From IMG/VR virus record IMGVR_UViG_3300017689_000001, positions 9,876-73,875 of that record: 64,000 nt of DNA. One strand, written 5' to 3'. Source of the DNA: a virus. A program made the translations under genes and the position numbers. The notes beneath the pieces are model-generated. The model searched no databases and had not been told where the DNA came from. It saw only the letters and a program-made list of their open reading frames with translations. Shown piece after piece: positions 3,198 through 7,957 of the stretch (the stretch's first letter is position 1; every line of letters starts with the position of its first letter).

Positions 3198-3848
3198 TTA
3201 CGCCCGGTCGATCAGCTCGAAGCCGACGACGCCCCACTCGTTGCCGTTCTTGTTGGTCTGCGGCACGCAGGTGATCTTGGCCTTGACCGTCGAGGTCGAC
3301 AGGCCCTTCTCGCGCAGTTCCTTGTAGAACTTCGTCCAGAACTTCACGCCGGTGATGGCCGGGGTGATGCCGAGCGTCTGGCCCTTCTTCGCGCCGGGGA
3401 CGTCCTTGAGCAGGACGACCGGGATCTCGGCGGTCTGGTAGGGGCCGTCGACCTTGTCGTGGCTCGCCTGCAGGCGCTGCGTCGCCTGCTGGAAGTTCTC
3501 GCCCTGCGAGGTCATGCGACCGTCGTAGGACTTGATGAAGGTCGTCGAGCCGCCGCGGTTGGCGCGCACCGAGAAGATCGGCACGACCGCGGTCAGGTCG
3601 ATCGTCACCTCGGCCTCCTGGAAGTAGGCCTCCTTGTCGATGCGCAGGCCGGCCTCCTTGACGGAGAGGTAGGCGTCGACGGTCATGCCGGAATTGTCGG
3701 CCATGTCGTCGAGCGAGGGGCGCGACGTGGCGACGGCGGTGCCCTGCTGGGCCTGCGCGACGAGCGCGCCGCCGGTGTTGGGCGCCGCCGAGTCGGCCGC
3801 CGTGGTGGCCTGATCGATGACGGAGTCGAGAGCGGAGTTGTTCGCCAT
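3198..3848 (-). CDS. Hypothetical replication-module protein, possibly ssDNA-binding
   Basis: Clean 216-aa ORF with phage codon bias next to the exonuclease and polymerase; function inferred from context only. Confidence 0.45.
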   Translation of the reverse strand: MANNSALDSVIDQATTAADSAAPNTGGALVAQAQQGTAVATSRPSLDDMADNSGMTVDAYLSVKEAGLRIDKEAYFQEAEVTIDLTAVVPIFSVRANRGGSTTFIKSYDGRMTSQGENFQQATQRLQASHDKVDGPYQTAEIPVVLLKDVPGAKKGQTLGITPAITGVKFWTKFYKELREKGLSTSTVKAKITCVPQTNKNGNEWGVVGFELIDRA

Positions 3849-3937
3849 GGTATCGTTTTCTTTCGTTTTGGTGTGGCCCCGTTGCTGGGGTAGGGCTGAT
3901 CTACCAGCCCAAGAGGATCATGCAAGCCTCCTATCTT

Positions 3938-3954
3938 AAACTACCGGGTAAGAT
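3938..3954 (-). promoter_or_regulatory. TAC-N3-GTA operator-like site
   Basis: AAACTAC-CGG-GTAAGAT; flanks identical to the copy at 29071. Confidence 0.55.
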
Positions 3955-4225
3955 GGTGGGGAGCTTCTGGTGCTCGGCGCTCCCCGTGCCGCCGGTGGGT
4001 CACGCCGCGCGGGCGTAGACCTCCGAGGTGTCGTTGTCGTTCGCGTTTACTCACTCACCGCGTGGCGCGTCGATCCTAGTTCGGCCCCGTCAACTATCCC
4101 CGGCCCATACCGTCAAGCACGACCGAGGATAGATGGTGGAGCCGACGGGTACTGCCCCCGTGTCCGCACCAGCAGCTCGGCCATTGCTGGCCGAGGCCGA
4201 CATCTAGGATGCCAGCCGATCAGCG
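3954..4225 (-). ncRNA. ssrA: Circularly permuted (two-piece) tmRNA, alphaproteobacterial type
   Basis: Minus strand. Acceptor piece ends GAC-ACGGG-GGCAGTA-CCCGT-CGGCTCC-A-CCA at 4134. A 45-nt intervening hairpin follows. Coding piece starts GGGGCCGAACTAGGATCGAC at 4088. The 7-bp acceptor stem has G3-U70; P2 is CGCGCCA/TGGTGCG; TAAAC precedes the resume codon. The 5' boundary of the acceptor piece is approximate. Confidence 0.9.
4000..4044 (-). other. tmRNA tag reading frame ANDNDTSEVYARAA*
   Basis: GCG AAC GAC AAC GAC ACC TCG GAG GTC TAC GCC CGC GCG GCG TGA; ANDN start and AA end are typical of SsrA tags. Confidence 0.9.
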
Positions 4226-4603
4226 TCAACCATGAAGATACTCAAAGCGATCGCCCGTCCACTCGGCGGCGCGGCGCGAGTAGGTGATGAACGGGCACCA
4301 GATTGCATCGTAGTCGGGGCCGCCGATGCGCACGTAAGAGACGCGCATCACGCCGGTGTCGGTGTCAATCGTGAAGCCGGTGATCTTGTAGATGTTCCGG
4401 GTCTTGACGTGGCGGTAGACGCCGCGCCGGCGATCGAGCATCGACGCGAGGTCAGCCGGCTTGGCGCGCTGACCCGGCGCCGGCCCGTCGAAGCTGGCGA
4501 CCAACGTGGCCGAGCCGTCGTCGTGAGCGCCGATAATATATCGGGTGGTAGGCACCGGGGTTGGTGCCGGCGGGACGGGCTTGGGGCGGGAAAAGAACTT
4601 CAT
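4226..4603 (-). CDS. DUF1653-like protein
   Basis: GVYRHVKTRNIYKITG...VMRVSY matches the G-x-Y-R-H-x-K-G pattern. Confidence 0.65.
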   Translation of the reverse strand: MKFFSRPKPVPPAPTPVPTTRYIIGAHDDGSATLVASFDGPAPGQRAKPADLASMLDRRRGVYRHVKTRNIYKITGFTIDTDTGVMRVSYVRIGGPDYDAIWCPFITYSRRAAEWTGDRFEYLHG

Positions 4604-7103: not shown

Positions 7104-7403
7104 TCATCGATCGATCGATGCGACGCCGCCAAGACCCGGTACTGGTCCGAGTCCATCCGACTGACGATCGACGCGGGCAGCGGCTGCCGCGGCCTCGGCG
7201 GCGGCGCGGCGGGTGGGGGCATGCTCATCGTCGTTCTCCCTATCGGCGGCTCGGAACAGGTCGTCGCAGAGCCGCAACATCTGGTTGAAGCTATTGAACG
7301 GGATGGGCGCCGTCGGGTTGCTCGACCGCGCCGTGATGCGGTTGATTTCCGTGTTCGCCTGCCGGCGCAGCGCGGCGATCGCGGCGATGAGGGCGGGACT
7401 CAT
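7104..7403 (-). CDS. Hypothetical protein
   Basis: 99-aa ORF with ATGA overlap. Confidence 0.55.
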   Translation of the reverse strand: MSPALIAAIAALRRQANTEINRITARSSNPTAPIPFNSFNQMLRLCDDLFRAADRENDDEHAPTRRAAAEAAAAAARVDRQSDGLGPVPGLGGVASIDR

Positions 7404-7957
7404 GCCGCCAGCGCCCGCTGCACCAGCTCGCCCTGCCCCCAGGCAAGGCTGGCGAGCGCCCGGTCGTACAGCCGCCGATCGCCGGCGACCATCACCTCGA
7501 GGATCTTGCGCTTCTCCTCGAGATAGGTGCGGGCGAAGCCGGGGTCGTGCGCCGCGATCGACGCGGTGTTGTGGATCAGGTCCGCCAGCTTGATGTCCTG
7601 CGCGGGGCCGCTGATCGCCGCCAGCCGCTCGCGCTCGCGATCCTTGCGCGTCGCTCGGTTGAGGTCGGGGTAGGCCTCGTGGGTGAAGGCATCGGTCAGG
7701 TCGAACACCAGCGCCGCGACGCCGCTGCCGAAGCGCCGCTCGATCGTCTCGATCGACACCGGCGTGTCCTCGACCACGTCGTGCAGCACGGCGGCGACCA
7801 GCTGGTCCTCGCTGACGACCGCGGCGGTCTCATGGAGGATCACCATCACCGCGATTGGGTGGGTGATGTAGGGCAGGCCGTCGTACTTGCGCACCTGTCC
7901 GGCGTGCGCCGTGGCGGCGAAGGCGATGGCGCTGTCGAGTTGCTTCCAGACGGTCAT
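7400..7957 (-). CDS. HD-domain protein of the RelA/SpoT hydrolase (MESH1/SAH-like) family
   Basis: AHAGQVRKYDGLPYITHP, AAVLHDVVEDT and IKLADLIHN motifs. Confidence 0.85.
   Translation of the reverse strand: MTVWKQLDSAIAFAATAHAGQVRKYDGLPYITHPIAVMVILHETAAVVSEDQLVAAVLHDVVEDTPVSIETIERRFGSGVAALVFDLTDAFTHEAYPDLNRATRKDRERERLAAISGPAQDIKLADLIHNTASIAAHDPGFARTYLEEKRKILEVMVAGDRRLYDRALASLAWGQGELVQRALAA

What the first reader, a model, noticed from the sequence alone, without database searches (positions are those of the whole stretch)
3954..4225. Phage-encoded circularly permuted (two-piece) tmRNA of alphaproteobacterial type
Seen: on the minus strand the tRNA-like 3' half (P2 strand TGGTGCG, GAC, T-arm ACGGG/GGCAGTA/CCCGT, CGGCTCC-A-CCA ending at 4134) comes before the 5' half (GGGGCCGAACTAGGATCGAC from 4088). 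The halves form a perfect 7-bp acceptor stem with G3-U70 and discriminator A. The 45-nt intervening segment folds into a 12-bp hairpin (CTATCCTCGGTC/GGCCGGGGATAG). The tag ANDNDTSEVYARAA follows TAAAC. Known: permuted ssrA with a GGCRGUA T-loop is characteristic of Alphaproteobacteria, and phage-borne tmRNAs exist; the ones I know are one-piece. Inference: the phage carries its own trans-translation RNA, using host SmpB (none seen in this window), to rescue ribosomes or redirect proteolysis during infection. I am not aware of a described phage-borne permuted tmRNA but cannot verify novelty.
Basis: partly seen in the sequence, partly recalled or inferred. Interest (0 to 1): 0.95.

Follow-up and report, generated by a model that had tools for sequence, protein, structure and literature searches.

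The report
Compact phage-encoded two-piece tmRNA gene
A leaf-surface phage carries its own circularly permuted ribosome-rescue RNA (tmRNA); such phage genes are already known, but this one is an unusually compact version lacking pseudoknot 1 that I found almost only in viral DNA.

Summary
On the minus strand at about 4229-3954 lies a complete, circularly permuted alpha-type tmRNA gene. Rfam alpha_tmRNA scores 72.8 bits (cut-off 50) and tmRNA_permuted 65.9 bits. It sits inside a 99%-complete 82.7-kb phage genome that has no SmpB and no integrase. Three related phages carry it at the same position, with compensatory changes in every helix and tag frames that stay open (ANDN...AA plus stop).

The novelty claim fails. 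Phage-borne two-piece tmRNAs were published in 2022 (Melnitz; 53 two-piece forms counted in phage genomes). Permuted tmRNA genes are annotated in Melnitz and DSS3_MAL1 and listed for giant Caulobacter phages. I also found an unannotated one in phiCbK.

What is unusual is the architecture. Only 12 nt separate helix P2 from the resume codon, so pseudoknot 1 cannot form. In 401 Alphaproteobacteria genomes, 240 have the long PK1-bearing spacing and none the short one. Among 185,579 species genomes, only two MAG contigs hold a genuine short form. At least 68 viral contigs do. ARAGORN finds 3 of 52. The three isolate tmRNAs I inspected are all long-form.

Verdict: a real gene of a known kind in a compact, apparently virus-restricted variant. 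Expression, processing and tagging remain unproven.

The parts
4202..4229 (-). Promoter-like region: TTGACG (4229-4224, overlapping the TGA stop of the upstream ORF), a 15-nt spacer, then CCTAGAT (4208-4202)
   Evidence: CCTAGAT is invariant in all four phages. TTGAC is present in three, with CTTGCG in L002 (alignment A1). In L003 and L004 this stretch aligns to the first 40 positions of RF01849, which cover the bacterial ssrA upstream region. It does not meet the E. coli sigma-70 scan. RNA-library contigs begin downstream of it and none lie upstream.
4173..4199 (-). 5' leader hairpin of the acceptor piece (CUCGGCC / GGCCGAG, loop AGCAAU)
   Evidence: Folds at -18.8 kcal/mol, z = -3.17. Equivalent hairpins with different sequences occur in L002, L003 and L004. 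It corresponds to the <<<<<____>>>>> element of RF01849.
4134..4176 (-). Acceptor piece core: P2 5' strand GCUGC-U-GGUGCG (4176-4165), GAC (4164-4162), T-arm (4161-4145), acceptor 3' strand CGGCUCC (4144-4138), discriminator A (4137), CCA (4136-4134)
   Evidence: RF01849 72.8 bits, RF04321 65.9 bits. Across 52 short-form sequences the T-arm and acceptor pairs covary, and G3.U70 is present in 52 of 52.
4089..4133 (-). Intervening segment of 45 nt, expected to be removed during maturation. Its stem starts 1 nt after CCA and ends 5 nt before G1
   Evidence: Folds at -23.3 kcal/mol, z = -4.28. In L002, L003 and L004 it is 140, 72 and 82 nt of unrelated sequence. Each closes in a terminal stem 0-1 nt after CCA and 4-5 nt before G1. 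A variant phage in other leaf samples differs mainly here.
4057..4088 (-). 5' part of the coding piece: acceptor 5' strand GGGGCCG (4088-4082), D-loop analogue AACUAGGAUCGA, and P2 3' strand CGCGCCA-C-GCGGU (4069-4057)
   Evidence: Covariance-model alignment. P2 has compensatory changes among the four phages: C-G / U-A / A-U at one position and U.G / A-U / G-C at another. P2a shows 3-4 pair types in the 52-sequence set.
4045..4056 (-). Single-stranded 12-nt linker GAGUGAGUAAAC between P2 and the resume codon, in the position where PK1 lies in other tmRNAs
   Evidence: GAC to resume codon is 24 nt here and 23-25 nt in L002-L004. It is 58-67 nt in most alpha-type tmRNAs on viral contigs. It is about 62 nt in Melnitz and DSS3_MAL1 and about 95 nt in phiCbK.
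4000..4044 (-). Tag reading frame: resume codon GCG (4044-4042), tag ANDNDTSEVYARAA, stop TGA (4002-4000)
   Evidence: Read directly from the sequence, with a weak match to the tag part of RF04321. Relatives encode ANDNSEVYHLRLAA, ANDNGEAVSLRLAA and ANDNDSQVAYALAA. They carry synonymous changes at the conserved Asn and Ala codons.
3954..3994 (-). 3'-terminal hairpin GGGGAGC / GCUCCCC (3985-3979 / 3964-3958) with loop GCCGAGCACCAGAA and tail ACCA (3957-3954). Loop GCCG (3978-3975) probably pairs with upstream CGGC (3994-3991), forming a pseudoknot
   Evidence: Folds at -16.6 kcal/mol, z = -2.85. The stem covaries in L002-L004 and in the low-GC group. The loop resembles the RF01849 3' end ACCuGGCAACAGAA. 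The loop-upstream pairing co-varies (CGGC x GCCG, CGGU x ACCG, GGGCU x AGCCU, GAGC x GCUU), but the shuffle control is weak, 4.7 against 4.2.

Best explanation
This is a functional, phage-encoded, circularly permuted (two-piece) tmRNA gene of alphaproteobacterial type in a compact form.

Proposed mechanism (all inferred):
1. The gene is transcribed from its own promoter just downstream of the preceding ORF.
2. The roughly 245-nt precursor folds so that the acceptor stem is extended by the intervening hairpin.
3. Host RNase P cuts 5' of G4088. Host 3'-processing enzymes trim to the encoded CCA at 4134 and release the spacer.
4. The acceptor piece (about 60 nt) and the coding piece (about 135 nt) stay together through the 7-bp acceptor stem and a 12-bp P2 helix.
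5. Host AlaRS charges the RNA through G3.U70 and A73.
6. Host SmpB and EF-Tu deliver it to stalled ribosomes. Translation resumes at GCG 4044 and adds ANDNDTSEVYARAA.

Unlike bacterial alpha tmRNAs and the phage tmRNAs from isolates that I inspected, it has no pseudoknot 1. P2 itself ends 12 nt before the resume codon.

The likely benefit is to keep ribosome rescue going in an infected cell whose RNA is being degraded or whose own tmRNA is limiting.

Shown here: sequence, structure, conservation, phage context and distribution. Inferred: processing, charging, tagging and benefit.
For: **Family match**
- RF01849 72.8 bits and RF04321 65.9 bits, both above their gathering scores.

**Phage context**
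- The record is a 99%-complete virus.
- Replication genes lie on both sides.
- No SmpB, tyrosine integrase or serine recombinase is present.

**Conservation**
- The gene is at the same position in three phages whose helicases are 78-85% identical. One of them is a 100%-complete genome with terminal repeats.
- P2, the T-arm, the leader hairpin, the 3' hairpin and the intervening stem all show compensatory changes.
- Tag frames stay open, with ANDN at the start, AA before the stop, and synonymous changes at conserved codons.
- More distant relatives have the same flanking genes side by side without the tmRNA, so it is a discrete module.

**Expression hint**
- Contigs from two leaf metatranscriptomes cover the gene and the downstream ORF.
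- They do not cover 4212-4553, which the DNA runs cover evenly.

**PK1-less tagging is possible**
- E. coli tmRNA with PK1 replaced or removed still tags proteins (Tanner 2006 and Wower 2009, as cited in PMC3968760).
Against: - There is no direct evidence of processing, alanylation or tagging.
- The RNA evidence comes from assembled contigs. These cannot show RNA ends or exclude DNA carry-over.
- PK1 was reported as required for tagging in E. coli (Nameki 2000, via PMC3968760). A form without it might work poorly.
- The tag ends in ARAA, whereas relatives end in LAA. The difference is a single base, CGC against CTC. It may weaken protease recognition.
- The promoter does not meet the E. coli sigma-70 consensus scan.
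- The host is unknown, so compatibility with its SmpB and AlaRS cannot be checked.
Confidence: 0.8

Rival explanations
1. The RNA is made and processed but acts mainly as a decoy. It would bind host SmpB, AlaRS or stalled ribosomes and so damp or redirect host trans-translation, rather than tagging efficiently.
For: - PK1 is absent, and the window's tag ends in ARAA rather than LAA.
- There is a precedent. [quoted passage not shown]
Against: - The tag frame is conserved as a peptide in all four phages and in 47 of the 51 other short-form sequences, with synonymous changes. A pure decoy would not need this.
- The UAAAC-like context before the resume codon is also kept.
Confidence: 0.12
2. It is a host-derived ssrA remnant, either an attachment-site copy or DNA picked up by imprecise excision, and has no function for the phage.
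For: - tmRNA genes are frequent integration sites.
- Fragments of ssrA are known in prophages (discussed in PMC9004378).
Against: - The genome has no tyrosine integrase or serine recombinase.
- The gene is complete, with a promoter, both halves, a tag and a 3' hairpin. It is not a 3' fragment.
- It differs from every bacterial alpha tmRNA searched in lacking the PK1 block.
- It shows compensatory evolution across four diverged phages.
Confidence: 0.03
3. It is an assembly chimera or bacterial contamination inside a viral contig.
For: - The record comes from a metagenome.
- Highly expressed bacterial tmRNAs share the T-arm, as shown by the very deep short contigs at 4133-4176.
Against: - The same gene order occurs in four independent viral contigs from different samples, one of them closed by terminal repeats.
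- An 82,237-nt contig of a public run spans the stretch without a difference, although that run may be the source sample.
- An 11.9-kb contig from a different study carries a variant of the same locus.
Confidence: 0.01

Closest known systems
Two-piece tmRNA (ssrA) of Methylophilales phage Melnitz and related marine myophages (Buchholz et al. 2022, PMC9004378)
   Same: - Phage-encoded and circularly permuted, with an alpha-type T-loop GGCRGUA and an ANDN... tag.
- No SmpB or integrase was reported.
- It lies among replication and transcription genes.
   Different: - Melnitz has about 62 nt between the D-loop GAC and the resume codon, enough for PK1. It also has a 150-nt intervening segment.
- It is reported to be next to a glutamine riboswitch.
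- The window has a 24-nt spacing, a 45-nt intervening segment and 66% GC, and it comes from the phyllosphere.
Permuted tmRNAs of Caulobacter phages (phiCbK; CcrSC and CcrBL9 in Table S1 of PMC9004378) and of roseophages (DSS3_MAL1, DSS3P8, RcXuper)
   Same: - These phages infect alphaproteobacteria and carry a permuted tmRNA.
- phiCbK has the same 3' hairpin with the loop GCUUGGCAACAGAA and an AANDN... tag.
- DSS3_MAL1 is annotated as ssrA.
   Different: - They are large 146-320-kb phages that also carry many tRNA genes.
- phiCbK has about 95 nt and DSS3_MAL1 about 62 nt before the resume codon, so both have the PK1 region.
- phiCbK has a different T-loop (UGCGAAU) and scores only 21 bits on RF01849.
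Bacterial alphaproteobacterial two-piece tmRNA (Rfam RF01849; Caulobacter type, Keiler et al. 2000, cited from memory and via PMC3968760)
   Same: - Same gene order, from acceptor piece through intervening segment to coding piece.
- Shared features: the GGCRGUA T-loop, G3.U70, the encoded CCA, the ANDN tag start, the 5' leader hairpin and the 3' hairpin with a CAACAGAA-like loop.
   Different: - A Mesorhizobium ssrA scores 314.9 bits over the whole model. This gene scores 72.8 bits over positions 82-174 only.
- Bacterial genes carry a conserved block of about 40 nt (CGGCAUGGUACCGCCGUUAUCGGGCC) between P2 and the tag, plus a longer P2. Both are missing here.
Engineered E. coli tmRNAs lacking PK1 (Tanner et al. 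2006; Wower et al. 2009; cited in PMC3968760)
   Same: No pseudoknot lies between helix 2 and the resume codon, yet the engineered RNAs still tag proteins.
   Different: Those are laboratory constructs of a one-piece tmRNA. This is a natural two-piece gene, and its activity has not been tested.

Membership tests
tmRNA (Rfam clan CL00001; trans-translation RNA) | tRNA-like domain with a 7-bp acceptor stem, a T-arm, a D-loop analogue and no anticodon arm | tested here: met
   RF01849 72.8 bits (cut-off 50) and RF04321 65.9 bits (cut-off 47). The pairs covary in 52 related sequences.
tmRNA (Rfam clan CL00001; trans-translation RNA) | Alanine identity elements: G3.U70, discriminator A73 and a 3' CCA | tested here: met
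   GGGGCCG pairs with CGGCUCC giving G3.U70, followed by A4137 and CCA 4136-4134. G.U at this pair occurs in 52 of 52 short-form sequences.
tmRNA (Rfam clan CL00001; trans-translation RNA) | Internal tag reading frame that starts at a GCN resume codon after an unpaired A/U-rich stretch and ends in Ala-Ala plus a stop | tested here: met
   GAGUAAAC then GCG ... GCG GCG UGA encodes ANDNDTSEVYARAA. The frame is kept in L002-L004 with synonymous changes.
tmRNA (Rfam clan CL00001; trans-translation RNA) | Aminoacylation, SmpB binding and tagging of stalled nascent chains | not testable with these tools
   No SmpB gene is in the phage, and the host is unknown.
Permuted (two-piece) tmRNA, alphaproteobacterial type (RF01849) | Gene order with the 3' tRNA-like half first and the 5' half with the tag second, separated by an intervening segment | tested here: met
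   CCA ends at 4134, a 45-nt hairpin spacer follows, and G1 is at 4088. Relatives have the same layout with unrelated spacers of 72-140 nt.
Permuted (two-piece) tmRNA, alphaproteobacterial type (RF01849) | Cleavage of the precursor into two mature RNAs | tested here: inconclusive
   Only assembled contigs of RNA libraries were available. One contig in run X3 joins 4090 to 4134, but what lies between the two sides is unknown.
Permuted (two-piece) tmRNA, alphaproteobacterial type (RF01849) | Full-length architecture of the bacterial family: extended P2 and the PK1 block upstream of the tag. This is typical of the family rather than defining for tmRNA as a whole | tested here: not met
   - Only model positions 82-174 of 355 align.
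- P2 to the resume codon is 12 nt.
- The long spacing occurs in 240 of 401 Alphaproteobacteria genomes and the short spacing in none as a tmRNA.
Integration-site (attP) copy of a tmRNA gene | A partial 3' copy of the host gene next to an integrase | tested here: not met
   The gene is complete and has its own promoter. No PF00589 or PF00239 match occurs anywhere in the 82.7-kb genome.

The most novel reading that the evidence does not exclude
The window belongs to a virus-restricted class of miniature two-piece tmRNAs that have lost PK1 and most of P2 yet remain active.

The class is widespread in uncultured phages: a high-GC phyllosphere clade and a large low-GC marine T4-like group. Standard annotation misses almost all of it.

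If true, phages have repeatedly or anciently streamlined the trans-translation RNA to a core of TLD, P2, tag and one 3' pseudoknot. That would be a natural test of what a tmRNA minimally needs. It would also hint that the phage form is tuned for infection, for example through faster maturation or escape from host control.
Probability: 0.5. Interest if true: 0.65.

Novelty: new variant of a known kind. Interest (0 to 1): 0.5.

Why it matters
The headline claim, a phage with a permuted tmRNA, is not new. The architecture is what is informative.

PK1 is the one pseudoknot long regarded as needed for tagging. Here, natural selection keeps an ANDN...AA tag frame in RNAs that cannot form PK1.

These genes appear in dozens of viral contigs from leaves and oceans. 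In 185,579 bacterial and archaeal species genomes they occur on only two MAG contigs. ARAGORN, the usual detector, sees about 6% of them, so published counts of phage tmRNAs are probably too low.

A compact natural tmRNA of about 195 nt in two pieces would be a convenient minimal model for trans-translation. It would also give a handle on why phages bring their own ribosome-rescue RNA.

Tried and rejected
- **ARAGORN:** it found nothing in the window or the whole genome. In L002 it found the gene but gave the wrong tag.
- **blastn against 50,697 phage records:** the whole gene gave no match. The TLD alone matched only T-arms of long-form phage tmRNAs. A low-GC short-form query did the same.
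- **E. coli-type promoter and terminator scan:** no sites. The promoter assignment therefore rests on conservation only.
- **Genome-wide short-spacing pattern:** it gave 111 hits in species genomes, about the number expected by chance. Only L277 and L340 had a tmRNA context.
- **Host naming:** The habitat (phyllosphere), 66% GC and the nearest isolate (Caulobacter phage Seuss, 40.6% terminase identity) only suggest a leaf-dwelling alphaproteobacterium.
- **A conserved protein partner:** rejected. The flanking unknown ORFs also occur in tmRNA-less relatives and have no homologues next to the low-GC short forms.
- **The sibling note's 'second CCA end':** the ACCA tail after the 3' hairpin is AACU, CACC and AACU in L002-L004, so it is not conserved.
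- **Primary papers:** Keiler 2000, Gaudin 2002 and Sharkady 2004 are not held.
- **My first fold coordinates** for the L002-L004 spacers were wrong. The folds were redone correctly.

Full report
**1. Observation**

- P2 5' strand UGGUGCG at 4171-4165 and GAC at 4164-4162.
- T-arm ACGGG/GGCAGUA/CCCGU at 4161-4145.
- Acceptor 3' strand CGGCUCC at 4144-4138, discriminator A4137, and CCA ending at 4134.
- A 45-nt spacer at 4133-4089.
- GGGGCCGAACUAGGAUCGAC starting at 4088.

The acceptor stem has seven pairs with G3.U70. The spacer folds into a long hairpin at -23.3 kcal/mol, z = -4.28. The frame GCG...UGA at 4044-4000 encodes ANDNDTSEVYARAA.

Rfam's alpha_tmRNA model scores 72.8 bits (gathering score 50, E 6.7e-18) and tmRNA_permuted scores 65.9 bits. 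ARAGORN reports nothing.

**2. Context**

- The window is part of an IMG/VR virus record of 82,669 bp rated 99% complete.
- The gene lies in a 375-nt gap between two minus-strand ORFs. It sits inside a replication and nucleotide-metabolism module containing a 5'-3' exonuclease, helicase, HD phosphohydrolase, class II ribonucleotide reductase, nucleotidyltransferase and ATP-dependent ligase.
- The whole genome has no SmpB, tyrosine integrase or serine recombinase.
- Public runs that hold the sequence come from phyllosphere, leaf and plant metagenomes.
- The nearest isolated phage by large terminase is Caulobacter phage Seuss at 40.6% identity, and it has no permuted tmRNA.

**3. Conservation**

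A helicase search found five related viral contigs. The three closest (78-85% identity) carry an alpha_tmRNA hit at the same position. The two at about 60% identity do not. One carrier is a 100%-complete genome with direct terminal repeats.

In the tmRNA-less relatives the same flanking genes lie about 100-120 nt apart. The tmRNA is therefore a discrete inserted module.

Among the four carriers:
- The tags are ANDNDTSEVYARAA, ANDNSEVYHLRLAA, ANDNGEAVSLRLAA and ANDNDSQVAYALAA.
- There are synonymous differences at the conserved Asn and Ala codons.
- P2, the leader hairpin, the 3' hairpin and the stem closing the spacer all change sequence while keeping their pairing.
- The spacers are 45, 140, 72 and 82 nt of unrelated sequence. 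Each forms a stem that starts 0-1 nt after CCA and ends 4-5 nt before G1. This fits a precursor cut by tRNA-processing enzymes.
- Upstream, CCTAGAT is invariant and TTGAC nearly so. In L003 and L004 this stretch aligns to the 5' part of the Rfam model, which covers the bacterial ssrA upstream region. It fails an E. coli sigma-70 scan.
- From memory only, it resembles the Caulobacter housekeeping promoter consensus TTGACGS...GCTANAWC.

**4. Expression**

Only assembled contigs of RNA libraries could be laid on the region.
- In two leaf metatranscriptomes, contigs cover the tmRNA (3947-4175 in one run, 3531-4162 in the other) and the downstream ORF.
- Nothing lies on 4212-4553, which the DNA runs cover evenly.
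- This fits a transcript that starts near the predicted promoter. It proves neither transcription nor processing.
- The variant phage in those samples differs from the window mainly inside the spacer.

**5. What is known**

- Buchholz et al. 2022 (PMC9004378) describe a two-piece ssrA in phage Melnitz. They report that 402 of 18,146 phage genomes encode tmRNA, with 133 unique structures of which 53 are two-piece.
- Their supplementary table lists permuted forms for giant Caulobacter phages.
- GenBank annotates the gene in Melnitz and DSS3_MAL1.
- The 2025 tmRNA database counts 79 unique bacteriophage sequences (PMC11915505).
- I also found an unannotated permuted tmRNA in phiCbK.

**6. What is unusual**

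Only 24 nt separate the D-loop GAC from the resume codon. After the P2 3' strand, 12 unpaired nt remain, so PK1 cannot form.
- Melnitz and DSS3_MAL1 have about 62 nt and phiCbK about 95 nt.
- Among alpha-type tmRNAs on viral contigs chosen by T-arm alone, most have 58-67 nt.
- In 401 sampled Alphaproteobacteria genomes, the pattern with a 50-80-nt gap matched 240. This count includes one unpublished genome, G043, and does not depend on it. These matches share a conserved CGGCAUGGUACCGCCGUUAUCGGGCC block.
- The 18-48-nt gap matched one genome, and that match is not a tmRNA.
- Across 185,579 species genomes the short pattern gave 111 hits, about the chance expectation. Only two, both on MAG contigs, have a tmRNA context. 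One of those MAGs has three alpha-type tmRNA hits on three contigs, which suggests binned phage DNA.
At least 68 distinct viral contigs hold a genuine short form: the high-GC clade of this window and a large low-GC marine group.
- Two long low-GC contigs that I checked carry T4-like phage genes.
- ARAGORN detects 3 of 52 unique short forms and gets the tag right in 2. ARAGORN-based surveys would therefore have missed them.

Across the 52 sequences:
- The T-arm, acceptor stem, P2a and 3' hairpin covary.
- G3.U70 is invariant.
- A pairing between the 3' hairpin loop and the segment just upstream co-varies across lineages, suggesting a retained 3' pseudoknot.
- The shuffle control for that pairing is weak.

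**7. Mechanism**

The best-supported reading is a working tmRNA that relies on host RNase P, 3' trimming, AlaRS, SmpB and EF-Tu.
- That PK1-less tmRNAs can tag is known from engineered E. coli molecules (Tanner 2006 and Wower 2009, via PMC3968760).
- The 12-nt distance from the last helix to the resume codon is similar to the PK1-to-resume distance I recall for E. coli. P2 may therefore take over the positioning role.
- The window's tag ends in ARAA where relatives have LAA. The difference is one base and may weaken ClpX-type recognition.
- The benefit to the phage (sustained ribosome rescue, or selective proteolysis) is inferred.
- A decoy role is the main rival. The conserved tag peptide argues against it.

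**8. Verdict**

This is a real feature and a known kind of element. This copy is a new member, and it belongs to a compact PK1-less variant that appears restricted to viruses and that I did not find described. Interest is moderate.

Noticed in passing
window 3894-3932 (minus strand): A six-codon mini-ORF (MILLGW, ATG 3921 to TAG 3903-3901) follows a perfect AGGAGG (3932-3927). Its stop codon lies in the loop of the hairpin GGGCUG/CAGCCC (3911-3894). L002 (MILETL) and L004 (MILSGL) keep the ORF and a covarying hairpin. The tmRNA-less relatives have a similar hairpin upstream of the 216-aa gene. It may be a leader-peptide control of that gene.
   Followed up: partly
It has counterparts at the same place in relatives, including those without the tmRNA. 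It therefore belongs to the downstream gene's control region and not to the tmRNA.
   Followed up: partly
L003 12445-12518: In one related phage a tRNA-Leu(CAA) gene starts 7 nt after the tmRNA model match ends. The window itself has no tRNA genes.
   Followed up: no
L146, L210, L215, L221 (low-GC viral contigs): Four short-form tmRNAs have a tag frame that runs on for 30 or more codons (ANDNVAQPKFMKKRNTFARKVGFTKGMALA...). The usual length is 12-14 codons.
   Followed up: no
NC_019405.1 about 103,310-103,790 (L366 1500-1790): Caulobacter phage phiCbK holds a permuted tmRNA with the tag AANDNDVVAFASAREAIAA and a UGCGAAU T-loop. It is not annotated in the RefSeq record and scores only 21 bits on RF01849.
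   Followed up: partly
L277 / genome G002 (Verrucomicrobiales MAG), contigs C75, C240, C47: One MAG of a non-alphaproteobacterial phylum has three alpha-type tmRNA matches on three contigs. These are most likely phage contigs binned into the MAG.
   Followed up: no
viral loci L007-L126: Between the short (23-29 nt) and long (58-67 nt) forms there is an intermediate class of viral alpha-type tmRNAs with 37-47 nt between the D-loop and the resume codon (11 loci). No Alphaproteobacteria genome among the 401 searched had a spacing in that range.
   Followed up: no
window 7400-7957 (minus strand): A RelA/SpoT-type HD hydrolase domain protein (PF13328, E 8.7e-18) lies 3 kb from the tmRNA. It could degrade alarmones during infection.
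   Followed up: no
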